Positions 30,854-43,933 of a stretch of DNA of 64,000 nt are shown piece after piece. The DNA is taken from positions 12,869-76,868 of the forward strand of contig DASZEN010000028.1 in the NCBI GenBank assembly GCA_035940775.1, written 5' to 3'. The notes beneath the pieces are model-generated. The model was not told the DNA's origin, did not search any database, and was given only the letters and a program-made list of their open reading frames with translations. Every line of letters starts with the position of its first letter. The stretch's first letter is position 1. The DNA is from Pyrinomonadaceae bacterium (GTDB lineage Bacteria; Acidobacteriota; Blastocatellia; Pyrinomonadales; Pyrinomonadaceae). The translations under genes and the position numbers were made by a program.

Positions 30854-33800
30854 ATGAAAGAATGTCCAGCTTGTCGACGCTGTTTTCCTGACCACGTCAA
30901 TCACTGCCCGAACGACGGTGATGCGACCGTGCATTCGATTGCGGGCGAGCCGATGCTCGACGGGCGCTATCAATTGGAGCGACGGCTCGGACACGGCGGC
31001 ATGGGCGTGGTCTTTCAGGCGCGTCACATCTTTCTCAAAACCGCTCACGCCATCAAGGTGATCCTGCCCGATCTGGTCGGCAACGACCCGATGCTGGTCA
31101 CGCGCTTTCGCCAGGAGGCGCTGGCGGCCGCCGCCATTCGCCACCAGAACATCATCGCCGTCACGGACTTCGGAGTGGCGCGCGGCACTATGCCCTTCCT
31201 CGTCATGGAGTTCGTCAAGGGCAAATCCCTGCACGACATACTGGCCGCCGAGGGGCCGCTCTCGCCCGCCCGCGCTTTAGAGATCATGGCGGCCGTCGGC
31301 TCGGGCGTGGCCGCCGCGCACCGTCAGAACATAGTTCATCGCGATTTGAAGCCCCTGAATATTATGCTTCAGGACGATATGCCGGTGAACGAGGGCGTCA
31401 AGGTTCTGGATTTCGGACTTGCCAAGATCAAGTCGGGCGAACTGCTCGGCTCGTTCGTTCAGGCGAAGACGAGCGGGCTGATGGGCTCGCCCTTCTACAT
31501 GGCTCCCGAGCAATGGTCGGATGAGGAGCCGGACGTTCGCGCAGACATCTACTCTCTGGGCGTGATCCTTTACCAGATGCTCGGCGGCGACGTGCCCTTC
31601 AAGGGCACAGGCATCCCCTCGATCATGAAGAAACACCTGACGAGCGCGCCGCCGACGCTCTCTTCGATGGGCGTGAGCGTCGCGCCGCAGATCGAGGCCG
31701 TGGTGCGTCATGCGCTCGAAAAGGATGCCGACAATCGCCCGCAGACGGTCGAGGCTTTCGTCGCGGAGCTGCGCGACGCCGTGGCCCAGACCTCGGCCTC
31801 GCTCGACCGCACCTACGTCGGGACGGTCGGCGTGCAGTCGGAGACCATCATCACCACCACGCCGTCGCGCCCGGCCATCTCCAGACCTCCGCAACATCAT
31901 CAGGAGACGACCCTAAGCATTCGCACGTCGCCCGCCTACTCGCGCGTCTATATCAATAACGTCTCCGTTGGCAAGAGCGATGGCTCGGGCCAACTGGTCG
32001 TTCAGGAAATCCAGCGCGGCGTGCATCGCGTGCGCGTCGTCCATGACGGCTACGCCGAGTGGGAGGGCCAGATAGAGTGCGACGGCGGCGAGTGTCGCGT
32101 CGATGCCGAGCTGCAAAGCCTGATGCAGACGAGTTTGCCGCAGTTGTCGGGCGATCAACTGGCGGGCACGATCACGGGCGCGCCCGACCAGATGCCGACC
32201 TCCTCGCACTCCATCGAAGCGCAGCGCTTACGCGCGCAGGCCGCAGCGCTCGAAGAGAAAGCGCGCCAGGAAGAGGCCGCGCGGCGTGAGCAGGAGCGCC
32301 GCGAGCAGGAGCGGCGCGAGATGGAAGAGCGCGACCGCATCGCTCGCGAGGAGATCGCGCGCGAAGAGGAAGCGTGCCGCGTCGCCGAAGAGGAACGCCT
32401 TCGCCTCGAAGCCGAAGAGCGCCGGAAGGCCGAGGAAGAGGAGCGACAGCGCGCCGCAGAGGCCGAACGTCTGCGGGTTGAAGAGGCCGAGCGTTTGCGC
32501 GCCGAAGCCGAAGCCGCGCGTAAACAGGCGGAAGCTGAAGCGCAAGAGCGTAAGCGACTGGAAGAAGAGCGAAAGCGGGCCGAGGCCGAAGCACGCGAAC
32601 GCGCCGAAGAGGAGAAGCGCCAGCGCGCCGAAGAGGAGGCCGCCCGCCGCAAGGCCGAAGAGGCGGCATCGCAAAAGCGCGCCGAGGAGGAGAAGCTCCT
32701 GCGTGCCGAGGCCGAGGCCGCGCGCAGGCGCGCCGAAGAGGAATCCGTCGCGCGCAAGGCCGCCGAAGAAGAGGCCGCTCGATTGCGCGCCGAGCAGGCG
32801 ACACGCAAGAAGGCGGACGAAGAGAGAGATCGCAAGCGCGCCGAAGAGGAACGCCTGCGCGCCGAGGAAGCAGACCGTCTTCGCGCCGAAGCGGAGGCCG
32901 CACGCAAGCAAGCGATAGCGGAAGCGCAAGAGCGCAAGCGCATCGAAGAGGAGCGAAAGCGGGTTGAAGCCGAAACGCAGCGTCGCATTGAAGAGGAACG
33001 AAAGCGCGCCGAGGCCGAAGCGCAGCGTCGTCTCGAAGAAGAGCGCCAGCGTTTAGAGAAAGAGAGGCTTGAGCGCGAGGAGAGGGAACGCGCCTCGGCT
33101 GCGGAGCGCGAACGTCTCGCGCGCGAGCTGAAAGAGCGTGACGAACAGATGGCGCGCATGGCCGCGACCAGCATCGCGCCCGATATGGACGCCACCCAGC
33201 AACAGCGGCGCGGCGTCGTCACCCAGCAGATGGGAGAAAACAGCCTCTCCGACGCCACCGTAGTGCCCTCCTGGCAGCAGCAACAGCAGCAGCAGAGCCA
33301 CCCCGGCCTGCATCAATCGGTCGCGCCGCCCTACGCTCCGGCAGAGGCTAAGAAGTCTTCGATGCCGATAATGCTGATTGCGGCGGTGCTCGCGCTGGTC
33401 GTCGCGGGCGGCGGCATCGGCGCCTATTTCATGCTCAGCTCCAAGCCCGCCGCCAGCGATCAGACGACACTGAAGACAGACCCGTCCAAGACCGGCGGTG
33501 GGACGAACAACTCGGATCAGAAGAGCCCCAGGGCAGAGATGATCGCCATTCCCGGCGGGACATTCCAGATGGGACGCAGCGACGGCCCCGCCCAGGAAGC
33601 TCCCGCTCATTCGGTCACCGTCAGTGATTTCCTGATGGATAAGACGGAAGTCACCAATGCCGAATACGCCGAGTTCGTCAACGAGACCAAGCGGACTCCG
33701 CCGAGCCATTGGCCCGAAGGCAAAGTACTTGCAGGGCAGGAGCAGTGGCCCGTCAATAACGTCTCGCTGGATGATGCCAAGGCGTTTGCCGCCTGGCGCT

Positions 33801-34219
33801 CAAAGAGAGATGGCGTAACGTACAGGTTGCCGACGGAAGAGGAATGGGAGTACGCGGCCCGAAACGGCGATCAGGGTAATCTATACCCGTGGGGAAACTC
33901 CTGGGCCAACGACAGCGCTATCGTCAAAGCGGTTTCGCCGCAGAGCGTGGGCACCATGCCGAACGGGAAAAATCGTTGGGGAGTACTGGATTTGATCGGC
34001 AACATCTGGGAGTGGACATCGTCGAAGGCTTCGATCTATCCAGGTAACGGAAGGCTGTCGGTTCCGGATCAGGACAAGGACTCGTATGTGATGCGAGGCG
34101 GGTCATACGCGAGCGAGCCTTCGGGAGAGCGCGCGATCACGGCGACGTTCCGCGACTGGGTTCCGGCGGCGACGAAGCATCCGACTCTGGGCTTCCGACT
34201 CGTGCGTGCCGGTTCCTGA
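30854..34219 (+). CDS. Zn-ribbon / Ser-Thr protein kinase / PEGA / long E-R-K-A helix / TM / FGE-sulfatase-domain protein
   Basis: 1121 aa. Domains in order: N-terminal MKECPACRRCFPDHVNHCPNDG; kinase motifs HRDLKPLNIM, DFGLAK and YMAPEQ; a PEGA-like segment (LSIRTSPAYSRVYINNVSVG...VHRVRVVHDGY). About 300 aa of E/R/A/K repeats follow, then Q7 and a TM helix (MPIMLIAAVLALVVAGGGIGAYFML). The C-terminal FGE/SUMF1 motifs are RLPTEEEWEYAAR, GNIWEWTSS and RGGSY. Confidence 0.9.
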   Translation: MKECPACRRCFPDHVNHCPNDGDATVHSIAGEPMLDGRYQLERRLGHGGMGVVFQARHIFLKTAHAIKVILPDLVGNDPMLVTRFRQEALAAAAIRHQNIIAVTDFGVARGTMPFLVMEFVKGKSLHDILAAEGPLSPARALEIMAAVGSGVAAAHRQNIVHRDLKPLNIMLQDDMPVNEGVKVLDFGLAKIKSGELLGSFVQAKTSGLMGSPFYMAPEQWSDEEPDVRADIYSLGVILYQMLGGDVPFKGTGIPSIMKKHLTSAPPTLSSMGVSVAPQIEAVVRHALEKDADNRPQTVEAFVAELRDAVAQTSASLDRTYVGTVGVQSETIITTTPSRPAISRPPQHHQETTLSIRTSPAYSRVYINNVSVGKSDGSGQLVVQEIQRGVHRVRVVHDGYAEWEGQIECDGGECRVDAELQSLMQTSLPQLSGDQLAGTITGAPDQMPTSSHSIEAQRLRAQAAALEEKARQEEAARREQERREQERREMEERDRIAREEIAREEEACRVAEEERLRLEAEERRKAEEEERQRAAEAERLRVEEAERLRAEAEAARKQAEAEAQERKRLEEERKRAEAEARERAEEEKRQRAEEEAARRKAEEAASQKRAEEEKLLRAEAEAARRRAEEESVARKAAEEEAARLRAEQATRKKADEERDRKRAEEERLRAEEADRLRAEAEAARKQAIAEAQERKRIEEERKRVEAETQRRIEEERKRAEAEAQRRLEEERQRLEKERLEREERERASAAERERLARELKERDEQMARMAATSIAPDMDATQQQRRGVVTQQMGENSLSDATVVPSWQQQQQQQSHPGLHQSVAPPYAPAEAKKSSMPIMLIAAVLALVVAGGGIGAYFMLSSKPAASDQTTLKTDPSKTGGGTNNSDQKSPRAEMIAIPGGTFQMGRSDGPAQEAPAHSVTVSDFLMDKTEVTNAEYAEFVNETKRTPPSHWPEGKVLAGQEQWPVNNVSLDDAKAFAAWRSKRDGVTYRLPTEEEWEYAARNGDQGNLYPWGNSWANDSAIVKAVSPQSVGTMPNGKNRWGVLDLIGNIWEWTSSKASIYPGNGRLSVPDQDKDSYVMRGGSYASEPSGERAITATFRDWVPAATKHPTLGFRLVRAGS
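32483..32984 (+). repeat. internal coding duplication (384-nt register) inside kinase E/R/K/A region
   Basis: The copy starting near 32483 encodes EAERLRAEAEAARKQAEAEAQERKRLEEERKRAEAEA. The copy near 32867 encodes EADRLRAEAEAARKQAIAEAQERKRIEEERKRVEAE. The CGT of the RLRAE motif sits at 32492 and 32876, exactly 384 nt apart. Confidence 0.8.
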
Positions 34220-34517
34220 AGGAAGTAATGAACTGAAGCCGCGGCGCGCCCGCGCTCGGAGACTGAAGTCGCCGGTCGGGCGTCGGTTCATCTTTACGGC
34301 AGATATATTCACGTTGTCGCGCGCCGTCGTCCGTGACGCTCTCTGCCCGCCACGCCTCAAGAGCTTTGTCTCAATGCGCGAGCCAGCCCGCGCCGCCGCC
34401 TCTGCGGACGCAATTCCTTCGGACTCGACGAGCGGCGTGCATCGAGAAGCGGCGACCGACGCAGAGGCCAAAGCGGCCGCCCGTTAGAAGTAATATGGTT
34501 TGATGAGAGGGAAAGCG

Positions 34518-35819
34518 ATGAAACCCTACACTTTTTGGCGCTCCTGCTCCTTGAGCATCGCGCTCGTAATCGGCGCGATGCTCACGACACCGCTGGCGCG
34601 CGCGCAGGATGTGGGCGGCGACCTGGGCGGAGCGGCGGGCATCTTCAGACCGAAGAACCCCGAGACGACGAGCAAACGGCGTGCGCCGGGGATTAAGCCG
34701 CCGACTAACAAGCCGCCCGCGACGACCGCGGCCCGGCGGCCCGGCGGCGGCGGTGGCGGTGGCGGCGGACGACCTGCGGGTTCGGCTGCTTCGGCTGCGG
34801 CTCTGGAAGAGCGAGTCGAGGATGCGCTCGACGAGGGCAACGAGGCGCGCGACGCGCGTCGTTACTCGGAGGCCGAGCGGCTCTATCGCGGCGCTTTACA
34901 GATGAAGGCGCGTGAATGGCGCGCCGCCTACGCGCTCGGCAATATTTATACGGATCAGCAGCGTTGGGAAGAGGCGGAGAAATCCTACCGTCAGGCCGTA
35001 GAATGGAACGTACTGTCGGCCGATGCGCAGCTCGCCCTCAGCTTCGTGCTCGTTCAGCCCCGCACGGGCGGCAATAATGCCAAGCGGCTGGCCGATGCCG
35101 AACAGGCCGCGCGCCGCGCCATCCAGCTTCAAGCGTCGAACCCGATTGCCTATGACCGTCTTGGCGCGGCGCTCGAAGCGCGCGGCGTATTGACGGGCGA
35201 CACCGAAGCGGCTTACCGTCGTGCCGTCGAGCTTGACCCGCAATCGGCAATCGCGCACGTACACCTGGGCCACCTTTTAAGAAAGATGAGCCGCGCGAGC
35301 GAGGCCGATCCGTTTTACCAGCGCGCGATAGAGCTGGCGCGCGATGCGCCGACGCTCGTCCTGATCGCCGAGACCTTGCAGACCGAGAATCGCTTCGATG
35401 ATTCCGAGCCGCTGCTGCGCCGCGCGCTCGAAATGGATGCGCGTAACCCGAGCGCGAACTACTTTCTGGGTCGCTCGCTCGTTTTGAAGAAGCGCTACGC
35501 GGAGGCCGAGCCGCTCCTGAAGGCGACCATAGAGGTGAGCCCGCGCAGCTTCGCGCCCTACTACGTGCTCGGCTCGGCCTACCTGAGAGCCGAGCGCCTG
35601 GAAGACGCCGAGGCCATTCTCAATCGCGCCGCCGAGTTTGCATCCACCGGAGACCGTAAGCTGTTGGCAGGCTCTTACGGTTTGAGCGGCGTCGGCGACG
35701 CTTACATCAAAGCCGGACGCGCGAAGGATGCCGTGCGCGCCTACCAGCGCGCCGTCGCACTCGACCCGGCTAATACGGAACTGCAAAGCAAGCTGGCCGA
35801 CGCCAAAACGAAGGGATGA
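34518..35819 (+). CDS. secreted TPR-repeat protein
   Basis: Signal peptide MKPYTFWRSCSLSIALVIGAMLTTPLARAQ, a Gly/Pro/basic linker, then about 8 TPR-like units (AYALGNIY, AYDRLGAALE, AHVHLGHLL, ANYFLGRSL, PYYVLGSAY...). The last four codons plus stop lie inside repeat copy B. Confidence 0.8.
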   Translation: MKPYTFWRSCSLSIALVIGAMLTTPLARAQDVGGDLGGAAGIFRPKNPETTSKRRAPGIKPPTNKPPATTAARRPGGGGGGGGGRPAGSAASAAALEERVEDALDEGNEARDARRYSEAERLYRGALQMKAREWRAAYALGNIYTDQQRWEEAEKSYRQAVEWNVLSADAQLALSFVLVQPRTGGNNAKRLADAEQAARRAIQLQASNPIAYDRLGAALEARGVLTGDTEAAYRRAVELDPQSAIAHVHLGHLLRKMSRASEADPFYQRAIELARDAPTLVLIAETLQTENRFDDSEPLLRRALEMDARNPSANYFLGRSLVLKKRYAEAEPLLKATIEVSPRSFAPYYVLGSAYLRAERLEDAEAILNRAAEFASTGDRKLLAGSYGLSGVGDAYIKAGRAKDAVRAYQRAVALDPANTELQSKLADAKTKG

Positions 35820-35950
35820 ACGAAGGGATGAAGGCTGAGGGCGGAGGGATGAGGGATAAAAGAGGCTGAGTGACGGATTCACTCTCGTAGTGATTCAGTC
35901 ATTCATCCCTGCGGCCCTCGTCCCTTCGTTCCGCCCTTCGAGGACGAACC
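35808..35950. repeat. copy B of mosaic palindromic repeat
   Basis: Left arm ACGAAGGGATGAA CGAAGGGATGAA GGCTGAGGGCGGAGGGATGAGGGAT. Right arm TCATTCATCCCTGCGGCCCTCGTCCCTTCGTTCCGCCCTTCG, about 27 of 33 complementary by hand. An internal GAGTGAcggaTTCACTC hairpin is present, and it shares TCAGTCATTCATCCCT with copy C. Confidence 0.65.
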
Positions 35951-35953: not shown

Positions 35954-37135
35954 ATGCAGCGATGCCAGAAATGCGGGCGCACTTACCAGGACGATAAACA
36001 GAAGTTTTGCACCTTCGACGGCGGACGCCTCGAAGGCGCTTCCGGTTCTGAGAGCGCGCCCACAGTTATTGATCTGAACCAGACCTTGCAGTCGAACCTG
36101 CCTCCGGGGCCGGGCTCGACCGCGCCCATCGTTCCGCCCGATCTCAACAGGACTATCGCCGGGGGGCCGCCCACACCGACCTCCGAATTTCAGACGCAAC
36201 CGACGGGGCCGACGAACGGGCCGACCTCGTCGCCCTTGCCGACCGTCTCGGCGTCCCTGCCCGCGACCCCCTCAGCGCCGCTAATGCCGCCGCCGCCACA
36301 GCAGCCGCAGTCGCAGCCATTGGCCCAAGCGGCTGCTCAACCTGCGAAGAAGTCCAGCAAGCTGCCTTGGATTTTGGGTGGGATCGCGGCGCTCCTGTTG
36401 CTCGCTCTGGGCGCGGGAGGCGTCCTCGTCTGGTTTGTGACCACCAAATCGCAGAAGCCCGGCGGCGGCACGGCCATCAATAGCGGCGCGGACAACAACG
36501 CTAATTCAAGCGCGAATGCCAACGACAAAGCGACGACCGCCAACACGAGCCCGAGCCCCACACTGACGCCGCCGCCCAACGCGACGCAGTTCGTCAACAC
36601 TCGCCGTAATTTGAACGCATTGCTCACGGAGCATTACGCGGATTTCTCATTCTATTATCCGAGGACGTGGGAGCTGGACACGAAAGCCGGGAGCGAGGGC
36701 TCCAGCAACTTCGTCAAGGTCGAGAGAAGGCTGCCTCCCGATTATACGCAGGAGAACTTCGCCGTCGGTTACTACGAGAGCCACGGCACGGTCGACGCCG
36801 ACCGTCCGATCTTCCCGAGCCTCGTCAAGTCTTTCGATTCAAAGTTCAACTCCAGCTTTCCCGAATACCGGAAAATTTCCGAGGGCGAGACCAGCATCAA
36901 TTCGATCAGCGGTTACGAGTTCCGCTTCCAGAGCGTCTCGCGCGGAACGGAGAAGGGCGACATCACCATCTGGGGGCGCATAGTCCTGCTGCCTCCGGGC
37001 GTCGAAGGCGATAAGCGCGGAGTGACGTTGTTGATGCTGGCGACCTCAGTCGCGCCGGAGTTGAAGAGCATAGATGATGTCGGCGTGCGTGGCGAATTGC
37101 CCGTGATCTTAAACTCATTCAAGCTGGGCCAATGA
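35954..37135 (+). CDS. Zn-ribbon / Pro-rich linker / TM / C-terminal globular domain protein
   Basis: 393 aa. N-terminal MQRCQKCGRTYQDDKQKFCTFDGGRL, a Pro/Ser/Thr-rich linker, a TM helix (LPWILGGIAALLLLALGAGGVLVWFV), an Asn/Ala/Thr-rich spacer and a 190-aa domain. A PsbP/DcrB-like fold for that domain is only a guess. Confidence 0.7.
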   Translation: MQRCQKCGRTYQDDKQKFCTFDGGRLEGASGSESAPTVIDLNQTLQSNLPPGPGSTAPIVPPDLNRTIAGGPPTPTSEFQTQPTGPTNGPTSSPLPTVSASLPATPSAPLMPPPPQQPQSQPLAQAAAQPAKKSSKLPWILGGIAALLLLALGAGGVLVWFVTTKSQKPGGGTAINSGADNNANSSANANDKATTANTSPSPTLTPPPNATQFVNTRRNLNALLTEHYADFSFYYPRTWELDTKAGSEGSSNFVKVERRLPPDYTQENFAVGYYESHGTVDADRPIFPSLVKSFDSKFNSSFPEYRKISEGETSINSISGYEFRFQSVSRGTEKGDITIWGRIVLLPPGVEGDKRGVTLLMLATSVAPELKSIDDVGVRGELPVILNSFKLGQ

Positions 37136-37280: not shown

Positions 37281-40200
37281 ATGAAGATAGTTCTAGCAGA
37301 AGAGAGCAACGGGCAACAGAAGCCCGAACGCTCATACGAACGCCCCGTCGTAAAAATCGGACGCGATCCGGCAGAGTGCCAGGTCGTCTTCAACCAGACG
37401 GAATGGCCCATGGTCTCGCGCCGTCACGCCGAGATTCGCTTAAAGGACGGGCGCTATCTGCTCGTCGATACCAATTCGAGCTTCGGCACTTTTCTTGACG
37501 GCCAGCGCATCGCCGAGCCCGCGGAGTTGCGCCAGGGCGCGCGCGCGCAGTTCGGCGCGGGCGGCCCCGTCATGCTCATCGTGCGCATCGAGCGGGAGCA
37601 GTCCAAACCCGCTCCCGTCGACTTTGCGGATATGGAGACGCGGCGCGACATGATGACGGAAGAGCGTCCCGCCGCGCCGACGCCCATTCCCACAACATCT
37701 CCTGCACCGCCAGCAGCCCCGAAGGCCGCTACACCGCAACAGCCGCCGCAGCCGCCGCCGCCCGTCGCGCAGCAGCAGCAGCAGCCCGCCGCTCCCGTTG
37801 CCGCACAACCACCGCCGTCGCCTCCTCCTCAGCGAAGCGCAGCCCCTCCTGCGCCGTCGCAGCCAGCCTTCATAGAGATAGTACGCAGCGCGACCGGCCA
37901 GCTCGAACGCATACAGGTCACGAAGGATGTGATGATGCTCGGACGCGACCCGGCGACCGACGTGGCGATAGAGGCATCGGCTGCCGTCGTCTCGCGTCGT
38001 CACGCCGAGGTGCAACGCCGCGACGGCCAGTTCGTTCTGGTCGATAAAGGCAGCTTCAACGGCACGCTCCTTAACGACCAGCGCATCACCACGCCGACGC
38101 CTCTCTATGACGGAGACCGCATCCAGCTTGGCATGGGTGGGCCCATACTGCGCTTCGTCGCTCCGTCGCATCCGGCCCCGGCCGGAGCGCAGCACGCCGG
38201 GCAGCGCGCCCTCGCCGGGGCGGGTGCACCGGCCGTCGCACCCGTCGCGCCCGTTTCGGGGCCGCTCGCCGAGGTCGCCGGGATGCACACGATGGTCGTC
38301 AAGTCCGGCTCCGGCTCCCTGCAACAGCAGAAGCCAGCCATCGGCGCGGGCGGTGGCGTCGCGGGCCAGCCGCAGTTGCTGATGCAGCTCGGCTTCAACG
38401 GCAAGCAGCAGCTCACCATAGGCCGCGCGCCCGACAACGATATTCACCTTGACGGATTGCAAATCTCCAACCATCACGCGCGGCTGCTGAACGCCTCGGG
38501 CCAGATCATCATAGAGGATGTCGGCTCGACCAATGGCGTCTACGTCAACGGCGCGCGCATCACGGGGCGTCGCCCCGTCCAGAACCGCGATATTGTGCAG
38601 GTCGGCCCGTTCGTCTTGCAGGCAGACCCGCAGCGCGGCGTCGCCATCTTCGACACCCGCTCGAAGACGCGCATCGATGTCATAGACATCACCAAAGAGG
38701 TCTCGAACCGTTCGGGCGGCGGGATGATTAAGCTCCTGGATGATGTCGACCTGACGATTCAGCCCAACGAGTTCGTCGGCCTCCTGGGCCCATCGGGCGC
38801 GGGCAAATCGACGCTCATGGATTCGATGAACGGCATGCGGCCCGCCACGGCCGGACACGTGCTGATTAATAATCTAGACCTCTACCAGCACCTGGATTCC
38901 CTCAAACAGTCAATCGGTTATGTCCCGCAGGACGACATCATTCACCGCGAGCTGACCGTCTACCGCACGCTCTATTACGTCGCCCGCCTCAGGCTTTCTC
39001 GCGACGTGTCGACGCAGGAGATAGACCAGATCGTGGGCGAGGTGATGGACGTGACGGGACTTTCGGAGCGCAGGGACGTGCCGGTGGGCCAACTCTCCGG
39101 CGGACAGCGCAAGCGCGTCTCCATCGCCGTCGAGCTGATTACCAAGCCCTCGGTCATCTTCCTGGACGAGCCGACTTCGGGGCTCGACCCGGCGACCGAA
39201 GAGAAGATCATGAAGCTGTTCCGGCAGATCGCGGAATCGGGCCGAACCGTCATCCTGACGACGCACGCGATGGAGAACGTCAAGCTCTTCGACAAGATCG
39301 TCGTCATGATGAGGGGCAAGCTGGTCTTCTACGGTGCGCCGCAGGAGGCGCTCGCGCACGTTCAGGCCGACAGCTTCAAAGACCTCTACGACAAGCTGGA
39401 AGCCCCCATCGAAGATCAGATCGCGAAGCTGCCCCCTTTGCCGCCCAATGCGACCAAGGAGCAGAAGTCCGCATTCAAAAAGCAGAAGGAGCAGATCGCC
39501 GAGGCGGTCGCCGAGGAATGGAAGCGGCGCTTTCAACGCACGCCGCAATACCAGCGCAATATCGTGCAGCCCCTGAGCGGCCTGCGGCGTGACCAGCAGG
39601 TGGTGGCGCCCGTCAAGCGGCGTCCGACCGTGACGGATGCGCTGCGCCAGTGGGCGACGCTCGCGCGCCGCTACATGGAGGTGCTCGGGCGCGACCGCTT
39701 CAATCTTCTGATCCTGTTCGGACAAGCCCCAATCGTGGCCTTTCTTCTTTATCTGGTGGTGGGCCGCGACGTTCCGCGCGACTTTCCGTTCTTCGTGCTC
39801 GCGCTCGTCGCCGTCTGGTTCGGCACTTCGGTCGCGGCGCGCGAGATCATACGCGAGCGCGCCGTCTATAATCGCGAGCGCATGGTCAACCTCGGGCTTC
39901 TGCCCTACGTCGGCTCAAAACTCTTCGTGCTCTCGATGATCGTCGGCGTACAGTGCGTCCTGCTCTTCGGGACGATCAAGCTCTTTGACCTCGCCGGGAT
40001 GATGAAGTTTCAGGGTTTATGGGTGGGCATCCCGCAGTTGATAATCATGATTATGACGGGAATCGTCGGCATCGCGCTCGGCCTCTTCGTCTCGGCCGTG
40101 GTCAAGACATCCGAGATGGCGACGAGCCTCGTGCCGCTCATACTGATTCCGCAGATCCTCTTCTCGGGACTCGTCGGCGTGCCGCAGGGCACCTCGAAGC

Positions 40201-40670
40201 TCGTCGGCCTGATTATGCCTGCGACCTGGTCTTTCGACGAGATGAAACGCCTGTCGGGACTCGATACGCTGCGCGAGGAGGGCTCGGAGAAGGCCGGGAC
40301 GAACGAGGGGCGCGGCCTCTACAAACACGTAGAGGACTTGAACGACGAGAACATCACGCGCGCGCGCCGCGACATAGAAAACTACAAGAAGACGGCCGAG
40401 GATAATCAGGCCGACTTCGAGAAGAAGATGAACGATTTCGTCGCCAGGTTGAAGCAGGGCGATACGTCGGCCGTTCAGCCCGAAGCGCCGAAACTCGGCG
40501 ACGCACCGACCGTGCCCGAGGCCGAGAGGATACCCGACGATCTGAGCAACTACGTGGACTTTCTGCACCCGTGGGGCCATATCCTTTTGAACCCCATCGT
40601 GCTCCTGATAATGTTCTTCGGTCTGATGGTTGCGACCATCATGGCGCTCAGATCGCAGGACATCGGGTGA
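37281..40670 (+). CDS. triple-FHA-domain ABC transporter (FHA x3 + ATPase + ABC-2-type permease fused)
   Basis: 1129 aa. The three FHA cores are VVKIGRDP..VSRRHAEIRLKDGRYLLVDTNSSFGTFLDG, VMMLGRDP..VSRRHAEVQRRDGQFVLVDKGSFNGTLLND and LTIGRAPDNDIHL..ISNHHARL..IIEDVGSTNGVYVNG. ABC motifs are Walker A GPSGAGKST, signature LSGGQRKRV and Walker B VIFLDEPTSGLD. Six or more TM helices follow, with a charged insert of about 120 aa before the last helix. Confidence 0.9.
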   Translation: MKIVLAEESNGQQKPERSYERPVVKIGRDPAECQVVFNQTEWPMVSRRHAEIRLKDGRYLLVDTNSSFGTFLDGQRIAEPAELRQGARAQFGAGGPVMLIVRIEREQSKPAPVDFADMETRRDMMTEERPAAPTPIPTTSPAPPAAPKAATPQQPPQPPPPVAQQQQQPAAPVAAQPPPSPPPQRSAAPPAPSQPAFIEIVRSATGQLERIQVTKDVMMLGRDPATDVAIEASAAVVSRRHAEVQRRDGQFVLVDKGSFNGTLLNDQRITTPTPLYDGDRIQLGMGGPILRFVAPSHPAPAGAQHAGQRALAGAGAPAVAPVAPVSGPLAEVAGMHTMVVKSGSGSLQQQKPAIGAGGGVAGQPQLLMQLGFNGKQQLTIGRAPDNDIHLDGLQISNHHARLLNASGQIIIEDVGSTNGVYVNGARITGRRPVQNRDIVQVGPFVLQADPQRGVAIFDTRSKTRIDVIDITKEVSNRSGGGMIKLLDDVDLTIQPNEFVGLLGPSGAGKSTLMDSMNGMRPATAGHVLINNLDLYQHLDSLKQSIGYVPQDDIIHRELTVYRTLYYVARLRLSRDVSTQEIDQIVGEVMDVTGLSERRDVPVGQLSGGQRKRVSIAVELITKPSVIFLDEPTSGLDPATEEKIMKLFRQIAESGRTVILTTHAMENVKLFDKIVVMMRGKLVFYGAPQEALAHVQADSFKDLYDKLEAPIEDQIAKLPPLPPNATKEQKSAFKKQKEQIAEAVAEEWKRRFQRTPQYQRNIVQPLSGLRRDQQVVAPVKRRPTVTDALRQWATLARRYMEVLGRDRFNLLILFGQAPIVAFLLYLVVGRDVPRDFPFFVLALVAVWFGTSVAAREIIRERAVYNRERMVNLGLLPYVGSKLFVLSMIVGVQCVLLFGTIKLFDLAGMMKFQGLWVGIPQLIIMIMTGIVGIALGLFVSAVVKTSEMATSLVPLILIPQILFSGLVGVPQGTSKLVGLIMPATWSFDEMKRLSGLDTLREEGSEKAGTNEGRGLYKHVEDLNDENITRARRDIENYKKTAEDNQADFEKKMNDFVARLKQGDTSAVQPEAPKLGDAPTVPEAERIPDDLSNYVDFLHPWGHILLNPIVLLIMFFGLMVATIMALRSQDIG

Positions 40671-40717
40671 AGTCCGAAAAGGCTCGAACTCTCGCCCTCG
40701 GCTAAAAGCGCTCAAAA

Positions 40718-40753
40718 TTGCAGCCCACGGCGCGCCGCGTCCGTGGGCTGCAA
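40718..40753 (+). terminator. hairpin terminator after FHA-ABC gene
   Basis: Perfect 13-bp stem TTGCAGCCCACGG / CCGTGGGCTGCAA with a 10-nt loop, followed by GGTTTATGG. Confidence 0.5.
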
Positions 40754-40812
40754 GGTTTATGGGGTCTTTACCCGCTCGGGTACGCTCACGGGCGAAGACT
40801 TGGCGCGCCGCC

Positions 40813-40841
40813 TTGACTTGGCGGCGTCAAGTCACGATATT
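40813..40841 (+). promoter_or_regulatory. candidate sigma70-type promoter for 40902 gene
   Basis: TTGACT (40813-40818), a 17-nt spacer, then GATATT (40836-40841), located 60 nt upstream of the ATG. Pattern match only. Confidence 0.35.
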
Positions 40842-40901
40842 TAGCTTTCGGTTAAGCCGGAGGCGGGCTATGCGCTTTGGCCCATCGCTCTTTCGGGGGA
40901 C

Positions 40902-41534
40902 ATGACGAAATTGAGAAAGCCAGTGTGGACATCGCTCGCGGCGCTTGCGCTTTGTCTCGCGCACCACCACCTCGCGTGGGGGGCCAGCTCTTTCGCCCTG
41001 CCCGTTCACGGTCAACCCGAGCGCGCGCCGCAACAGCAGCAGCAGCAAACTTTCCCGGCCCCGCCCGCAGACCGCACGCTCGTCTACGTCGCGGACGAGA
41101 CGGGGGCGCTCGCGGCGCTGCCGTTTGAAGCGGGGGCGACGCCTATTAAAACCGATGAGGTGGCCAAGAGCGATAAGATCAGCTATGTCGAAGTGAAGGG
41201 CGCGAGCGCCGCGACGACCGTTAGAGGGGACGAGCCGCGCCTCTACGTTTTCGTGCCGGATAAGACGGAGGCGCATCCTCCGTTTCTCGTACGTCTCGAA
41301 GCAAAGCGCGGGGCGCGGCGTGTGACGGCCGTTACGCAGCGCGGGTTGCGCGGCTACGCCATCGCTTCCGAAGAGATAGTCAAGCCGCGCTATCGCGTGC
41401 TGGCGCGCGACGGCCAGCAGGTTTACATGGAGATACGCCCGCGCGAGCCGCTTCTGCCCGGCGAATATGCTATCGTTGGCACAGACCTTCAGCGCATCGC
41501 GACGTTTCGAGTCGCCGGGGCCTTTATCCCTTAG
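40902..41534 (+). CDS. secreted hypothetical protein
   Basis: 210 aa with a signal-like N-terminus (VWTSLAALALCLAHHHLAWG) and a Q6 tract. No family recognised. Confidence 0.6.
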   Translation: MTKLRKPVWTSLAALALCLAHHHLAWGASSFALPVHGQPERAPQQQQQQTFPAPPADRTLVYVADETGALAALPFEAGATPIKTDEVAKSDKISYVEVKGASAATTVRGDEPRLYVFVPDKTEAHPPFLVRLEAKRGARRVTAVTQRGLRGYAIASEEIVKPRYRVLARDGQQVYMEIRPREPLLPGEYAIVGTDLQRIATFRVAGAFIP

Positions 41535-41567
41535 ATTGGCGGTTTAAGAAAAGGAAGATTTGACTAA

Positions 41568-42248
41568 ATGACTTCTCCAACACAGCCGAGCGCGCGCGTG
41601 CCTAAAAAATTCTGGACTACGGGTCGCATGGCTTTTACCTTTGTCGTGCTGGCGCTCGTCGCTGCCTTTGGAGCTTCGAGCTGTAATCAGGCTACGGAGG
41701 TGGCGATAAGCAATCAGGGCGCGACGCAGACCGGCGGCGGCGCTGGTGCACCGCAGGCGGCGGGCGGCCCGGCCGTCCCTGCGGCCCTGCCTCCGCTGCC
41801 AGCGAACTTGATGACGACCGAGCTAAAGACGCTCGACGGAAAGAGCATCAAGCTCGCGGATTACGCTGGAAAAGTCGTCATCGTCAACTTGTGGGCGACG
41901 TGGTGCGGGCCGTGCCGGATAGAGATTCCACACCTGATCGACATCGCCAACGAGTATCGAGGGCGCGTCGAGTTGATCGGTCTGACCAATGAAGACCCCG
42001 TCGCCGATGCGGAGAAGGTCAACGAGTTCGTGCGCGAGCAGAAAATCAATTACACCGTCGGCTGGGCGTCACAGGAATTTGCGCTCGGGTTGATGCAGGG
42101 ACAGATACGAAATTCTATCCCGCAAAGCTTCGTTATCTCGCGCGAGGGTCGCGTCGTAAAGCGCTTCGTCGGCTTCAGTCCCGTGCAGACGCCGCCGCAG
42201 ATGCGCCAGGCCGTCGAGCAGGCCGTCAACGAAAAGAGCGGAACCTGA
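41568..42248 (+). CDS. TlpA/ResA-like thiol-disulfide oxidoreductase (membrane-anchored thioredoxin fold)
   Basis: N-terminal TM helix, then VVIVNLWATWCGPCRIEIPHL (WCGPC active site) and a typical redoxin C-terminal half. Confidence 0.85.
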   Translation: MTSPTQPSARVPKKFWTTGRMAFTFVVLALVAAFGASSCNQATEVAISNQGATQTGGGAGAPQAAGGPAVPAALPPLPANLMTTELKTLDGKSIKLADYAGKVVIVNLWATWCGPCRIEIPHLIDIANEYRGRVELIGLTNEDPVADAEKVNEFVREQKINYTVGWASQEFALGLMQGQIRNSIPQSFVISREGRVVKRFVGFSPVQTPPQMRQAVEQAVNEKSGT

Positions 42249-42472
42249 AGAACCCATTAAGAAGGCCTTCCAGGCCGCTCTCGCGCCCGCGCAACGCCGA
42301 CAGAGACCAGTGAGAGAGCGAGCGAGCGCCGGGAGCGACGCCGGTGAAAAGCCGCAGGGTCGGGCGTGCTCGTCCCTGAGTTTGCTGCAATCGCGCCTCA
42401 AGATCATCTTCAAGCCCTCACCACGGAAAGAGTTTTGCGGCGCGTCGCGACCGTGATGACCGGAGGCATAGG

Positions 42473-43933
42473 ATGAAACGCTGCCCCGCCTGTGACCGCA
42501 CCTACTCGGATGAACACGAGCTAAACTTTTGCCTGGATGACGGCGCGCCGCTGCTGCGCGTCGAATCGCCCTCGTTCGGTTCGCAAGAGACGCTGCGCAT
42601 CCCTGCGGCGCGCGAGACGGAGCAGGGGCGCACCGATATTTTGTACCCGCAAGCGCCCCCCTTCAATCCGCCCAGGCAGGCATACGGGCCCACACCTTAC
42701 TCCCCGCTGCCCGGAGGCTATGGGCAGAGCGCGACACCGCTCGCTCGAAAGCGGAGCCCCTGGCCCTGGATCATCGCCTCGGCTGTCGTCCTGGCCCTGG
42801 GCGTCGCCGCCATCGCCGCCTTCGTCGCCTACAGAATGCTAAGGACGCAGACCATCACGGTCTCGAAGGGTGGCGGCGGCGAGTACACGACAATCGCAGA
42901 GGCCATCAAAAAGGCGGAGCCGGGCGCGCGCATCATGGTGCGACCGGGCCTCTACAACGAGAGCTTAACGATAGACAGGCAGGTGGAGATCATCGGCGAC
43001 GGGCCGCTGCGTGACATCGTCGTTGAGAGCCGGGACACCAACTGCATGCGTATGCAGACGGAGAGCGCGACCGTCAGGGGCCTGACCTTGCGCGCCCGTA
43101 CTTCGCCCAAAGAATTTTTCGCAGTTGATATACCGCGCGGTCAGTTGACCATTGAGGATTGCGATATTACTTCGGACACGCTCGCTTCGGTGGCGGTTCA
43201 CGGCTCGATGGCCGACGCCGTCATTCGTCGGACGCGCATCCACGACGGAAAGGCTGGCGGCGTCTTCATCTTCGATCACGGCAAGGGAACCATTGAGGAT
43301 TGCGACATCTACGGCAACGTCAACGCCGCCGTCGAGATTAAGGACGGCAGTAATGCGACGGTGCGCCGCTCGAAGCTCTACGACAATAAGGCGAGCGGCG
43401 TCTACGTCTGGAAGAACAGCAAGGGCAATATCGAGGAGTGCGACATCTACGGCAACGAGTATGCCGGAATCACCATCGGCGAATACGCCAGCCCGACCAT
43501 CACCAAATGCCGAATCCATAACGCCAAAGCGGGCGGCATCTTTATTTACGATCACGGCAAGGGAACCATTGAGGATTGCGAAATCTCCGTCACGGTCTAT
43601 GCCGGAATCGAGATCAAGGACGACAGCGACCCGGTCGTTCGCCGCTGCAGGATTTCCGAGAGCAAAGTGAGCGGCGTCTTCGTCTGGAAAAACAGCAAGG
43701 GCGTGATTGAGGATTGCGAGATTTTCAAGAACGCCTACGCGGGGGTGGCGACCTCGGAGGCCGGAAACCCTGTCGTCCGGCGCTGCAAGATCAATGACAA
43801 TGGTTATCAGGCGATATGGGCCTATAACAACGGGGCGGGAACCGTCCAGGACTCCGATCTGACGGGCAATGATCGCGGCCCCTGGCTCATAGAGACGGGC
43901 AGCTCCGTCAGCCGCAGCGGAAACACGGAATAA
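42473..43933 (+). CDS. Zn-ribbon / TM / right-handed parallel beta-helix repeat protein
   Basis: 486 aa. N-terminal MKRCPACDRTYSDEHELNFCLDDGAPL, a TM helix (WPWIIASAVVLALGVAAIAAFVAY), then pectate-lyase-like PbH1 coils with repeated IEDCDI...V(R/T)RC(R/K)I units. Confidence 0.8.
   Translation: MKRCPACDRTYSDEHELNFCLDDGAPLLRVESPSFGSQETLRIPAARETEQGRTDILYPQAPPFNPPRQAYGPTPYSPLPGGYGQSATPLARKRSPWPWIIASAVVLALGVAAIAAFVAYRMLRTQTITVSKGGGGEYTTIAEAIKKAEPGARIMVRPGLYNESLTIDRQVEIIGDGPLRDIVVESRDTNCMRMQTESATVRGLTLRARTSPKEFFAVDIPRGQLTIEDCDITSDTLASVAVHGSMADAVIRRTRIHDGKAGGVFIFDHGKGTIEDCDIYGNVNAAVEIKDGSNATVRRSKLYDNKASGVYVWKNSKGNIEECDIYGNEYAGITIGEYASPTITKCRIHNAKAGGIFIYDHGKGTIEDCEISVTVYAGIEIKDDSDPVVRRCRISESKVSGVFVWKNSKGVIEDCEIFKNAYAGVATSEAGNPVVRRCKINDNGYQAIWAYNNGAGTVQDSDLTGNDRGPWLIETGSSVSRSGNTE
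43151..43843 (+). repeat. five tandem 46-47-codon coding repeats (138-nt period, 276-nt super-period) in beta-helix gene
   Basis: ATTGAGGA(T/G)TGCGA recurs at 43151, 43292, 43430, 43568 and 43706. Segments 43263-43307 and 43539-43583 are nearly identical (...GATCACGGCAAGGGAACCATTGAGGATTGCGA...). Confidence 0.85.

What the first reader, a model, noticed from the sequence alone, without database searches (positions are those of the whole stretch)
30854..43933. Kinase / triple-FHA ABC exporter neighbourhood: a candidate phospho-Thr-gated export module
Seven same-strand genes lie within 13 kb. They encode a Zn-ribbon Ser/Thr kinase, a TPR protein, a Zn-ribbon-TM protein and an ABC exporter carrying three N-terminal FHA (phosphothreonine-binding) domains. 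A secreted protein, a TlpA-like periplasmic thiol oxidoreductase and a Zn-ribbon-TM-beta-helix protein complete the set. The established precedent is Mycobacterium tuberculosis Rv1747, an ABC exporter with two FHA domains regulated by the adjacent kinase PknF. This locus has three FHA domains, a very different kinase, and extra extracytoplasmic partners (thioredoxin-fold, beta-helix). That suggests an expanded, uncharacterised version in which kinase output recruits or gates the exporter. The cargo is unknown.
Basis: partly seen in the sequence, partly recalled or inferred. Interest (0 to 1): 0.65.

Follow-up and report, generated by a model that had tools for sequence, protein, structure and literature searches.

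The report
Kinase-linked triple-FHA ABC exporter module
A soil acidobacterium (Pyrinomonadaceae) keeps a membrane receptor kinase, the remnant of a second dead kinase, a phosphothreonine-reading ABCG-type exporter and a periplasmic thioredoxin side by side; this is a conserved elaboration of the known M. tuberculosis PknF/Rv1747 scheme, and its cargo is unknown.

Summary

- The kinase also carries a PEGA domain, a ~320-aa E/R/K-rich helix, a TM helix and a periplasmic Cys-less FGE-like domain.
- The 'Zn-ribbon-TM protein' (g3) ends in a PsbP/Mog1-like periplasmic domain. It is the kinase-less descendant of a receptor pseudokinase still intact in deeper relatives.

Across 80 Pyrinomonadaceae loci, the block kinase - TPR - g3 - 3xFHA-ABC - TlpA-like thioredoxin is conserved down to ~53% ABC identity while its flanks change. 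ABC paralogs sit next to other kinases in different arrangements.

One threonine in the linker before the NBD-proximal FHA domain (T337, 'T[MI]V') is invariant in 46/46 orthologues and recurs in most paralogues. Similar T-hydrophobic-x-hydrophobic islands follow the Zn-ribbons of g3, g7 and a paralogous partner.

The transmembrane domain is ABCG-like.

Triple FHA is not special: 59 of 109 complete relatives have three. g5 and g7 are lineage-specific.

Verdict: a real, conserved, uncharacterised variant of the Rv1747/PknF type. Phosphorylation, FHA binding and cargo remain inferred.

The parts
30854..34219 (+). g1 / STK1: receptor Ser/Thr kinase, 1121 aa. Zn-ribbon-like CxxC..CxxDG motif (nt 30863-30919); Hanks kinase domain (30968-31756); PEGA (31907-32116); E/R/K/A-rich helix of ~320 aa (32261-33223); TM helix (33368-33424); periplasmic Cys-less FGE-like domain (33533-34207).
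   Evidence: Pfam. Catalytic motifs GxGGMG, AIK, HRDLKPLN, DFG and APE are intact in the window and in the full-length orthologues, with DYG in place of DFG in many clade A2 proteins. TM helix. No Cys at the FGE catalytic site, and 25/36 orthologue domains are Cys-free. The E/R/K segment holds 0 residues in clade A2 and 50-330 in clade A1.
34500..35819 (+). g2: TPR protein with an N-terminal signal/anchor and a Gly-rich linker, predicted periplasmic.
   Evidence: Pfam TPR families. Hydrophobic N-terminus. Found between STK1 and g3 in most group-A loci.
35954..37135 (+). g3: Zn-ribbon-like motif (35963-36022), then a P/T-rich disordered tail with conserved Thr islands APTVID, DLNQTLQ and DLNRTIAG (36056-36163), a TM helix (36383-36439) and a periplasmic PsbP/Mog1-like domain (36566-37132). 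It is the kinase-less descendant of a receptor pseudokinase.
   Evidence: Alignment with orthologues that carry a kinase-like domain with a degenerate G-loop, beta3 K->R/Q and HRD->HRN/HRS. AF2 model pLDDT 93.3. Foldseek hits to 3lyd, Mtb Apa, PsbP and MTC28 at E 2e-6 to 1e-3. No Pfam or NCBIfam family.
37281..40670 (+). g4: 3xFHA-ABC exporter, 1129 aa. FHA1 (37281-37595); linker 1 with METRRD, T120 (37632-37649); FHA2 (37860-38171); linker 2 with the invariant T337 in MHTMVV (38283-38300); FHA3 (38355-38636); NBD (38736-39350); ABCG-like TMD (39705-40649) including a ~135-aa periplasmic TM5-TM6 loop (40182-40592).
   Evidence: Pfam. FHA domain counts. Walker A GPSGAGKST, signature LSGGQ and Walker B IFLDEPTSG are intact. 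Thr conservation. Topology. AF2 pLDDT 83 with a 46-residue periplasmic helix. ABCG5/G8, ABCG25, ABCG1 and ABCG2 are the best fold matches.
40718..40753 (+). Perfect 13-bp hairpin, 48 nt after the g4 stop codon, followed by a T-containing tract. A sigma70-like site lies at 40813-40841, upstream of g5.
40902..41534 (+). g5: small protein with a signal-peptide-like N-terminus and no family match. Lineage-specific insert between the ABC and thioredoxin genes.
   Evidence: No Pfam or NCBIfam hit. Present only in clade A1 loci. g5->Trx gap has a median of 20.5 nt.
41568..42248 (+). g6: membrane-anchored periplasmic TlpA/ResA-like thioredoxin; CGPC at nt 41904-41915.
   Evidence: Redoxin/AhpC-TSA. 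ResA and TlpA are the best NCBIfam hits, below cutoff. WxxWCGPC in 37 of 42 thioredoxin-like genes in the loci. It lies directly after the ABC gene with a median gap of 11.5 nt in 22 loci.
42473..43933 (+). g7: Zn-ribbon-like motif (42482-42544), cytoplasmic tail with QETLRI (42584-42601), TM helix (42770-42826) and a periplasmic right-handed beta-helix (42854-43930). Not a conserved member of the block; possibly another client of the same signalling system.
   Evidence: Pfam Beta_helix/NosD. Found at this position only in L001 and L005. Shares the Zn-ribbon and T-hydrophobic-R-hydrophobic tail with g3 and with the c28 family next to two-FHA paralogues.
29616..30323 (-). MerR-family regulator divergent from STK1 (a possible regulator; membership uncertain).
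   Evidence: Pfam MerR_1, 5.3e-7. Its cluster c23 lies upstream of STK1 in L003, L004, L005 and L017. Sigma70-like site at 30358-30330.

Best explanation
This is a receptor-kinase-controlled ABCG-type (ABC-2 / type V) exporter module of Pyrinomonadaceae.

The conserved core is STK1, a periplasmic TPR protein, g3, the 3xFHA-ABC half-transporter and a TlpA-like periplasmic thioredoxin.

Proposed mechanism:
1. STK1 is an active Hanks kinase. It senses something in the periplasm through a non-catalytic FGE-like domain. g3, with its PsbP-like periplasmic domain, probably acts as a co-sensor or scaffold; g3 descends from a receptor pseudokinase.
2. STK1 phosphorylates conserved T-hydrophobic-x-hydrophobic islands. 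These lie in the exporter's own disordered inter-FHA linkers (invariant T337; T120 in the window's clade) and perhaps in the cytoplasmic tails of the Zn-ribbon single-pass proteins g3 and g7.
3. The three FHA domains read these phosphothreonines, in cis or in trans. This switches, clusters or assembles the exporter, as shown for M. tuberculosis Rv1747/PknF.
4. The cargo is unknown. The ABCG-like membrane domain favours a lipid or other hydrophobic envelope component. The tight coupling to a CGPC thioredoxin points to envelope or periplasmic redox maintenance.

Shown here: the domain content, intact catalytic motifs, conserved and recurrent gene linkage, conserved Thr islands and the folds.

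Inferred: every phosphorylation and binding step, the direction of regulation and the cargo.
For: - Domains.
- Block conservation: STK1 - TPR - g3 - ABC - Trx is conserved in about 45 of 80 loci, down to 53% ABC identity, while the outer flanks differ. It also appears in a 42%-identical relative, L081.
- Kinase density: about 1 kinase gene per 10 kb within 6 kb of the ABC gene, against 0.05-0.09 per 10 kb at 6-10 kb. The 64-kb window holds a single kinase, and FHA domains only in g4.
- Independent kinase arrangements at paralogues: a small Zn-ribbon kinase overlapping the ABC start by 4 nt in L056; a divergent adjacent kinase in L033; two kinases plus a Zn-ribbon protein downstream of two-FHA paralogues; extra kinases inserted downstream in seven A1 loci.
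- Distant relatives sit in FHA/STK/PP2C operons (L084) or near kinases (L086, L083).
- STK1 catalytic motifs are intact in the window and in the full-length orthologues, whereas the g3 kinase-like domain is degenerate.
- All three FHA domains keep the GR and SxxH phosphate-binding residues.
- T337 is invariant in 46/46 orthologues, and the motif is present in most paralogue linkers.
- Thr islands follow the Zn-ribbons of g3, g7 and c28.
- Short same-strand gaps: medians of 61, 80, 126 and 11.5 nt.
- The NBD motifs are intact, and the TMD fold is ABCG-like.
- Precedent: PknF phosphorylates two linker threonines of Rv1747; the FHA domains bind them, and phosphorylation activates the transporter (PMC3138270; PMC8339232). 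Phosphorylation also drives clustering (PMC9312465).
Against: - No phosphorylation, binding or transcript data exist for this organism. No RNA runs were found.
- Synteny within one bacterial family is partly inertia: LeuRS upstream is conserved too.
- Several A2 lineages keep ABC-Trx without the upstream kinase block (L069-L072, L078).
- Two of seven distant relatives have no kinase or phosphatase within 8 kb.
- No PP2C phosphatase lies in the window locus.
- In the window, a strong hairpin and a promoter-like site separate g4 from g5-g6, so the seven genes are probably not one transcript.
- FHA1 lacks the canonical Asn of the NG motif (SSFGT) and may not bind pThr normally.
- The conserved Thr islands could be conserved for reasons other than phosphorylation.
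Confidence: 0.6

Rival explanations
1. The ABC protein is mainly a signalling or sensing partner rather than a cargo pump. Its ATPase cycle or periplasmic loop would report an envelope condition. Its FHA domains would scaffold the active kinase, the pseudokinase-derived g3 and other Zn-ribbon clients into a membrane signalling hub, with the output elsewhere in the cell. Known analogues are BceAB-type flux sensing, and the TagTS ABC transporter that acts upstream of PpkA in the Pseudomonas T6SS threonine-phosphorylation pathway (both from my own knowledge).
For: - No cargo-biosynthesis genes (glycosyltransferases, peptide or lipid synthesis) lie in any group-A locus.
- The neighbours are sensor-like periplasmic domains: FGE-like, PsbP-like, TPR and beta-helix.
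- A pseudokinase partner is typical of signalling scaffolds.
- Paralogues sit beside other signalling proteins: a receiver domain, WD40, caspase-TPR and FHA proteins.
Against: - FHA domains are readers of phosphothreonine, which places the ABC protein downstream of a kinase.
- No output domain or transcription factor is conserved in the block. MerR occurs in only five loci.
- The NBD and an ABCG-like TMD are fully conserved, as expected of a working transporter.
- The characterised relative Rv1747 behaves as a kinase-activated transporter.
Confidence: 0.15
2. The functional unit is ABC + TlpA-like thioredoxin, an envelope redox or maturation system. The exporter would deliver a reductant or a thiol-containing or Cys-dependent substrate to the periplasm, where the CGPC thioredoxin acts. 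The kinase would be only a loosely attached regulator or a bystander.
For: - The thioredoxin gene is the most constant neighbour. It follows the ABC gene with a median gap of 11.5 nt, even where the kinase block is absent (L070, L071, L074, L078).
- CGPC is conserved in 37 of 42 thioredoxin-like genes in the loci.
- The pair persists in a 42%-identical relative.
Against: - The exporter is ABCG-like, not the CydDC type known to export thiols.
- No CcdA/DsbD-type electron donor or cytochrome-maturation gene lies in the locus.
- Three conserved FHA domains and the invariant linker Thr show that phospho-signalling is built into the transporter itself.
- This reading is compatible with, rather than exclusive of, the main explanation.
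Confidence: 0.15
3. The genes are neighbours by inherited gene order only, with no functional coupling between kinase and exporter.
For: - Housekeeping LeuRS is conserved upstream of STK1 in many loci.
- Intergenic gaps between g1-g2-g3-g4 in the window are 134-280 nt.
- A hairpin follows g4.
- All 80 loci come from one family.
Against: - Kinases recur next to paralogous and distant FHA-ABC genes in unrelated arrangements.
- There is a steep distance decay of kinase density.
- FHA domains need a Thr kinase, and the only kinase in 64 kb is in this block.
- The Zn-ribbon motif is shared by g1, g3 and g7 and is absent elsewhere in the window.
- g3 derives from a kinase-family protein.
Confidence: 0.07

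Closest known systems
Mycobacterium tuberculosis Rv1747 (FHA-FHA-NBD-TMD ABC exporter) with its operon partner, the receptor Ser/Thr kinase PknF
   Same: - N-terminal FHA domains joined by disordered linkers and fused to an ABC-2-type half-transporter.
- A single-pass receptor Hanks kinase encoded next to it on the same strand.
- Conserved Thr residues in the inter-FHA linker (Rv1747: T150/T208, numbered T152/T210 in later work).
- The Rv1747 FHA-1 and FHA-2 structures are among the best PDB matches of the window's FHA domains (6ccd 9.5e-9, 6cah 2.8e-7).
- Literature: PMC3138270, PMC8339232, PMC9312465.
   Different: - Three FHA domains and two linkers instead of two and one.
- The kinase carries a Zn-ribbon-like N-terminus, PEGA, a long E/R/K helix and an FGE-like ectodomain.
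- A second receptor (pseudo)kinase or its kinase-less remnant, a periplasmic TPR protein and a TlpA-like thioredoxin are conserved parts of the block.
- The exporter has a ~135-aa periplasmic TM5-TM6 insert with a 46-residue helix.
- The phylum differs (Acidobacteriota, diderm).
- Orthology of the transporter core to Rv1747 was not tested, because no full-length Rv1747 sequence was available.
Eukaryotic/bacterial ABCG-type (ABC-2, type V) half-transporters (ABCG5/G8, ABCG1, ABCG2, AtABCG25)
   Same: - NBD-then-TMD order, six TM helices and a large extracytoplasmic loop between TM5 and TM6.
- Best fold matches (E 3e-5 to 1e-3, TM ~0.45).
- Best NCBIfam whole-transporter model is TIGR00955, the White/ABCG subfamily, below its cutoff.
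   Different: - Sequence identity is only 11-17%.
- The FHA array is absent from those proteins.
- The periplasmic loop here is a long helix rather than the compact disulfide-bonded EL3.
Type VI secretion threonine-phosphorylation pathway (PpkA kinase, Fha1/TagH reader, TagQRST with the TagTS ABC transporter) of Pseudomonas aeruginosa
   Same: - A membrane Hanks kinase, an FHA reader, an ABC transporter and periplasmic accessory proteins work together at the envelope (PMC7817224, PMC10482370; listed).
- TIGR03354 (TagH) hits the FHA array at the FHA-domain level.
- My recollection that TagR is FGE-like could not be confirmed in the papers searched (0 occurrences of 'formylglycine').
   Different: - No T6SS genes are seen among the neighbours.
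- The ABC transporter there is a MacB/LolCDE-like protein acting upstream of the kinase and lacking FHA domains. Here the FHA reader is fused to an ABCG-like exporter.
Receptor kinase / pseudokinase pairs
   Same: In clade A2 an active receptor kinase (STK1) and a receptor with a degenerate kinase-like domain are encoded two genes apart and share the same N-terminal Zn-ribbon-like motif.
   Different: - The pairing is inferred from gene order only.
- In the window's clade the pseudokinase domain has been deleted outright, leaving the Zn-ribbon, a P/T-rich tail, the TM helix and the PsbP-like ectodomain.

Membership tests
FHA-domain ABC exporter regulated by an adjacent Ser/Thr kinase (Rv1747/PknF type) | FHA domain(s) fused N-terminally to an NBD-TMD ABC-2 half-transporter | tested here: met
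   Three FHA stretches plus ABC_tran and ABC2_membrane. The same architecture is found in nearly all full-length homologues.
FHA-domain ABC exporter regulated by an adjacent Ser/Thr kinase (Rv1747/PknF type) | Disordered inter-FHA linker carrying conserved phospho-acceptor threonine(s) | tested here: met
   T337 is invariant in 46/46 orthologues and the motif recurs in paralogues. T120 (METRRD) is present in 26/46. Presence is shown; phosphorylation is not.
FHA-domain ABC exporter regulated by an adjacent Ser/Thr kinase (Rv1747/PknF type) | Catalytically competent Hanks kinase encoded in the same neighbourhood, conserved across relatives | tested here: met
FHA-domain ABC exporter regulated by an adjacent Ser/Thr kinase (Rv1747/PknF type) | The kinase phosphorylates the transporter, and the FHA domains bind the phospho-sites | not testable with these tools
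   Needs biochemistry or phosphoproteomics. No RNA or protein data exist for this organism.
FHA-domain ABC exporter regulated by an adjacent Ser/Thr kinase (Rv1747/PknF type) | Orthology of the transporter core to Rv1747 | not tested
   Only the Rv1747 FHA domains are in the PDB (6ccd, 6cah). No full-length sequence was available for comparison.
ABCG-like / ABC-2 (type V) exporter | NBD N-terminal to a six-helix TMD; intact Walker A, Walker B and signature motifs; ABCG-like fold | tested here: met
Formylglycine-generating enzyme (FGE) | Catalytic cysteine pair in the C-terminal active site | tested here: not met
   The aligned site reads RGGSYASEPSGERAITATFRD with no Cys, and 25/36 orthologue domains have no Cys at all. 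It is an FGE-like fold only (Pfam PF03781).
TlpA/ResA/DsbE-type periplasmic thiol-disulfide oxidoreductase | Thioredoxin fold with a CxxC motif, exported or membrane-anchored | tested here: met
   Redoxin/AhpC-TSA. ResA and TlpA are the best NCBIfam hits, below equivalog cutoffs. CGPC is conserved. N-terminal TM helix at 21-39.
PsbP/Mog1/DcrB-like fold (g3 C-terminal domain) | Alpha-beta sandwich fold similarity to PsbP-family structures | tested here: met
   AF2 pLDDT 93.3. 17 PDB hits at E<=1e-3, including 3lyd, Apa, PsbP and MTC28, with TM 0.45-0.6. There is no sequence-family match.
T6SS threonine-phosphorylation pathway (PpkA/Fha1/TagQRST) | Linkage to type VI secretion structural genes | tested here: not met
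   No T6SS families were found among the neighbours searched in the window or in related loci.

The most novel reading that the evidence does not exclude
The three FHA domains may work as a phospho-dependent docking array. STK1 would phosphorylate a shared short motif, T-hydrophobic-x-hydrophobic, that lies just after a shared Zn-ribbon-like module on several single-pass membrane proteins. These proteins carry a PsbP-like, a beta-helix or another periplasmic domain. The exporter would then recruit different periplasmic 'clients' through these phospho-tails and assemble a switchable trans-membrane machine. The pseudokinase-to-tail decay of g3, together with the parallel growth of the E/R/K spacer in STK1, would record how such a client evolved from a kinase paralogue.
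Probability: 0.2. Interest if true: 0.75.

Novelty: new variant of a known kind. Interest (0 to 1): 0.55.

Why it matters
Ser/Thr-kinase control of transporters through FHA domains has been worked out in essentially one case, Rv1747/PknF of M. tuberculosis, and its cargo is still debated.

This analysis adds four points:
- The principle is widespread. There are 8,991 relatives at E<=1e-30, and three FHA domains is the commonest state among the nearest ones.
- One soil lineage has built a richer, conserved module around it: an active receptor kinase, a pseudokinase-derived partner, a TPR protein and a thioredoxin.
- An invariant linker threonine and shared tail motifs give precise, cheap mutational targets.
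- Acidobacteria are abundant in soil and poorly understood. A kinase-gated envelope exporter tied to periplasmic redox would be a concrete handle on how they sense and remodel their envelope.

Tried and rejected
- A full-length ABC query in the search for homologous proteins timed out. I used the TMD instead.
- An exact look-up of the window's ABC protein found nothing; the genome is not in that collection.
- The PDB sequence search with the TMD alone gave no significant hit. The fold search was needed.
- Pfam at E<=10 found no model for the Zn-ribbon-like N-termini or for g5.
- A search with the g7 N-terminal tail found only five close fragments, so the spread of the Zn-ribbon tail module beyond these loci is unknown.
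- No RNA-seq runs hold the locus. The DNA runs are soil metagenomes, so operon structure could not be tested.
- The promoter/terminator consensus scan was at chance level.
- Cluster look-up gave no taxonomy for distant relatives.
- I considered LeuRS part of the block and rejected it as housekeeping.
- The genes after the thioredoxin in clade A2 (NFACT, RDD, NYN, DUF2203, SpoU) are unrelated, and the first four lie on the opposite strand.
- My recollection that TagR of the T6SS pathway is FGE-like could not be confirmed in the literature search and is not used as evidence.
- My single-linkage clustering merged STK1 and g3 into one cluster, and I re-labelled them by domain. Their shared Zn-ribbon-like N-terminus and the kinase-like domain of clade A2 g3 proteins are shown.

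Full report
**Observation**

The seven + strand ORFs are present at the coordinates given. Pfam and NCBIfam confirm the following:
- g1 (30854-34219): a Hanks-type kinase.
- g2 (34500-35819): a TPR protein.
- g4 (37281-40670): an ABC protein with three FHA stretches, ABC_tran and ABC2_membrane.
- g6 (41568-42248): a Redoxin/TlpA/ResA-like protein.
- g7 (42473-43933): a right-handed beta-helix protein.
- g3 (35954-37135) and g5 (40902-41534): no family match.

The N-terminal CxxC...CxxDG motif occurs in g1, g3 and g7 and nowhere else in the 64-kb window. No Pfam model recognises it, and g3 and g7 have only three Cys. 'Zn-ribbon' is therefore a reasonable but unproven label.

It carries a PEGA domain, a ~320-residue segment that is 77% E/R/K/A, one TM helix and a periplasmic FGE-sulfatase-like domain. 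That domain has no Cys at the FGE catalytic site, so it is a binding or sensor module, not an enzyme.

A hydropathy scan places part of most products outside the cytoplasm:
- g1, g3, g6 and g7 each have a single TM helix.
- g2 has a hydrophobic N-terminus read as a signal peptide.
- g4 has TM1-5, a ~135-aa loop and TM6.
- The scan found no hydrophobic segment above threshold in g5. Its signal-like N-terminus is read from the translation only.

**Organism and relatives**

Homologues of the exporter's membrane domain come from Pyrinomonadaceae and Blastocatellia (Acidobacteriota) MAGs. The DNA is found in soil metagenomes.

A scan of one genome per species returned more than 590 relatives. The best 80 loci (49-90% identity in the TMD) were kept with up to 10-kb flanks, where the contig allowed.

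**Conserved linkage**

I used tblastn of the window's proteins against the 80 loci and an ORF, clustering and domain-labelling pass.

The order is STK1 - TPR - g3 - 3xFHA-ABC - (g5) - thioredoxin. It is kept in about 45 loci in two deep clades:
- A1, which includes the window.
- A2, with 53-58% ABC identity to the window.

The outer flanks differ between clades:
- In A2 the genes after the thioredoxin are NFACT, RDD, NYN, DUF2203 and SpoU. The first four lie on the opposite strand.
- LeuRS is often upstream of STK1. This is a warning that synteny within one family is partly inertia.

Stronger evidence for a functional link comes from recurrence:
- Kinase genes occur at about 1 per 10 kb within 6 kb of the ABC gene. 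At 6-10 kb the rate is 0.05-0.09 per 10 kb. The 64-kb window has a single kinase. These counts are not phylogenetically independent.
- Paralogous FHA-ABC genes carry kinases in unrelated arrangements:
  - a 344-aa Zn-ribbon kinase whose stop overlaps the ABC start by 4 nt (L056);
  - a divergent adjacent Zn-ribbon kinase (L033);
  - two kinases plus a Zn-ribbon protein three genes downstream of the two-FHA paralogues (L036, L038, L042, L045, L049);
  - extra kinases inserted right after the ABC gene in seven A1 loci.

Seven more distant relatives (36-44% identity) were looked up:

| Locus | Context |
|---|---|
| L081 | Same block: kinase-PEGA-FGE, ABC, Redoxin |
| L084 | Operon of FHA proteins, two kinases and a PP2C phosphatase |
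| L086 | Kinase two genes away |
| L083 | Kinase about 6 kb away |
| L082 | PP2C nearby |
| L085, L087 | Neither kinase nor phosphatase |

g7 is at this position in only two other loci, and g5 only in clade A1. Neither is a core part.

The most constant neighbour is the thioredoxin. It follows the ABC gene with a median gap of 11.5 nt (n=22). It persists where the kinase block is absent, and it keeps WxxWCGPC in 37 of 42 thioredoxin-like genes in the loci.

Median gaps for STK1->TPR, TPR->g3 and g3->ABC are 61, 80 and 126 nt.

In the window itself, a perfect 13-bp hairpin (40718-40753) and a sigma70-like site (40813-40841) lie between g4 and g5. This suggests at least two transcription units. 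No RNA data are available.

**What g3 is**

Aligning g3 with its positional orthologues shows the same Zn-ribbon-like N-terminus, TM helix and C-terminal domain throughout.

In clade A2 the protein is 750-876 aa and contains a kinase-like domain. That domain has:
- no glycines in the G-loop (IGQDETSIS);
- Arg or Gln in place of the beta3 lysine in most members (a few keep Lys);
- HRN, HRS or HRA in place of HRD.

It is a predicted pseudokinase. Three lineages have acidic low-complexity sequence in its place. The window's clade has a P/T-rich tail. STK1, by contrast, keeps every catalytic motif in the window and in the full-length orthologues.

The C-terminal domain folds with high confidence (pLDDT 93.3) into a PsbP/Mog1-like sandwich. 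Its matches include 3lyd, M. tuberculosis Apa and MTC28, and PsbP, at E 2e-6 to 1e-3.

The E/R/K-rich helix of STK1 is absent in clade A2. It has 50-330 residues in clade A1, the same clade that lost the pseudokinase domain. I cannot explain this correlation.

**The exporter**

- All three FHA domains keep the Gly-Arg and Ser-x-x-His phosphate-binding residues. FHA1 has Phe or Tyr where the canonical Asn of 'NG' sits.
- Walker A, signature and Walker B motifs are intact.
- An AF2 model of the membrane domain (pLDDT 83) shows six TM helices. It also shows a 46-residue helix in the periplasmic TM5-TM6 loop.
- Its best structural matches are ABCG5/G8, ABCG25, ABCG1 and ABCG2. These are lipid, sterol and small-hydrophobic exporters.

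The linkers between FHA domains are otherwise variable, but they contain conserved islands:
- T337 (MHTMVV) is invariant in 46/46 group-A proteins. A T[MI][VML] motif sits at the same place in most paralogues.
- T120 (METRRD, a TxxD motif) is conserved in the window's clade, in 26/46 proteins.

The tails after the Zn-ribbons of g3, g7 and the paralogue-associated c28 family carry similar islands: ETVRI, ETIRL, ETLRI, ATMRY, KTVQF, APTVID and DLNxT[VI]. In Rv1747 two linker threonines are the PknF targets and FHA ligands (PMC3138270; PMC8339232).

**How common is triple FHA?**

An exhaustive profile-free search found 8,991 proteins at E<=1e-30. Among the 109 best representatives with a complete NBD and TMD, the FHA counts were:

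| FHA domains | Proteins |
|---|---|
| 3 | 59 |
| 2 | 42 |
| 1 | 5 |
| 4 | 3 |

Three FHA domains is therefore ordinary for this family.

**Mechanism**

The best-supported reading is a receptor-kinase-gated ABCG-type exporter that works like Rv1747/PknF:
1. STK1 senses a periplasmic cue, probably together with g3 and the TPR protein.
2. STK1 phosphorylates the linker threonines, and perhaps the Zn-ribbon tails.
3. The FHA array reads them and activates, clusters or assembles the pump.
4. The cargo is unknown. The fold favours a hydrophobic envelope component, and the tight thioredoxin coupling suggests an envelope-redox role.

Rivals are:
- a mainly signalling role for the ABC protein;
- an ABC-thioredoxin redox unit with the kinase peripheral;
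- mere inherited gene order.

The last is disfavoured by the recurrence data.

All phosphorylation and binding steps are inferred.

**Comparison and novelty**

A full-text search for 'FHA domain', 'ABC transporter', 'Acidobacteria' and 'kinase' found one paper holding all four terms, on polymorphic toxin systems. I did not read it.

The system works like Rv1747/PknF and meets the testable defining features of that type. Orthology of the core was not tested. It differs in five ways:
- the receptor kinase architecture;
- the pseudokinase-derived partner;
- the TPR and thioredoxin partners;
- the periplasmic insert;
- the shared Zn-ribbon and Thr-motif tails.

I rate it a new variant of a known kind, of moderate interest.

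Noticed in passing
window 32261-33223 (g1 aa ~470-790): A ~320-residue segment that is 77% E/R/K/A, lying between the PEGA domain and the TM helix of the kinase. It looks like a single-alpha-helix spacer and is built of imperfect 15-45-nt tandem repeats. Its length is 0 residues in clade A2 orthologues and 50-330 in clade A1, the clade in which g3 lost its pseudokinase domain. I have no explanation for the correlation.
   Followed up: partly
L052, L054, L055, L059, L062, L063, L065, L066, L067, L076, L079 (gene just upstream of the ABC gene): The positional orthologue of g3 is a 750-876-aa receptor with a degenerate kinase-like domain (no G-loop glycines, beta3 K->R/Q, HRD->HRN/HRS). It is a predicted receptor pseudokinase sharing the N-terminal Zn-ribbon-like motif with the active kinase two genes upstream.
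   Followed up: yes
window 29616-30323 (- strand): A MerR-family regulator divergent from the kinase gene, with a sigma70-like site at 30358-30330. Its cluster recurs upstream of STK1 in four related loci. A MerR-TPR fusion also sits near the two-FHA paralogues (L049 19574-20392).
   Followed up: partly
L022, L023, L025, L027, L032 (downstream of a paralogous FHA-ABC): Paralogue group B1 is followed by a small unknown protein, a 1,116-aa WD40 protein, a DUF4384 protein and a TPR-caspase (Peptidase_C14) protein. This is a signalling- or conflict-system-like neighbourhood, different from the window's.
   Followed up: partly
L056 358-1392 / 1389-4547: A 344-aa Zn-ribbon kinase (HLD instead of HRD, i.e. 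non-RD) overlaps the start of a triple-FHA ABC gene by 4 nt. This is the tightest kinase-exporter coupling seen.
   Followed up: partly
protein database hits P0001-P0240: Public gene calls for the ABC, and probably for g3, are often truncated even on long contigs. ABC proteins are called at 480-790 aa instead of ~1,100. g3 hits, retrieved with a C-terminal query, are 190-350 aa against the ~390-550 aa read here for clade A1. The g3 calls probably start after the low-complexity P/Q/T-rich linkers, but I did not inspect their N-termini. If so, the FHA array and the Zn-ribbon tails would be under-annotated in databases.
   Followed up: no
window 12001-14000: GC content drops to 0.52 against 0.60-0.65 elsewhere in the window. 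Not examined.
   Followed up: no
window 58737-58812 (- strand): A single tRNA-Thr(CGT). The surrounding 58-60 kb stretch has unusually high GC skew (0.13) and AT skew (0.26). Not examined further.
   Followed up: no
window 46993-48918 (+), 29587-30114 (+): A 641-aa ORF conserved in related loci (59-74% identity in L001, L003 and L004) has no Pfam family. The 175-aa ORF 29587-30114 overlaps the MerR gene on the other strand. tblastn matched it in related loci, which may only reflect conservation of the overlapping MerR gene, so it may be spurious.
   Followed up: no
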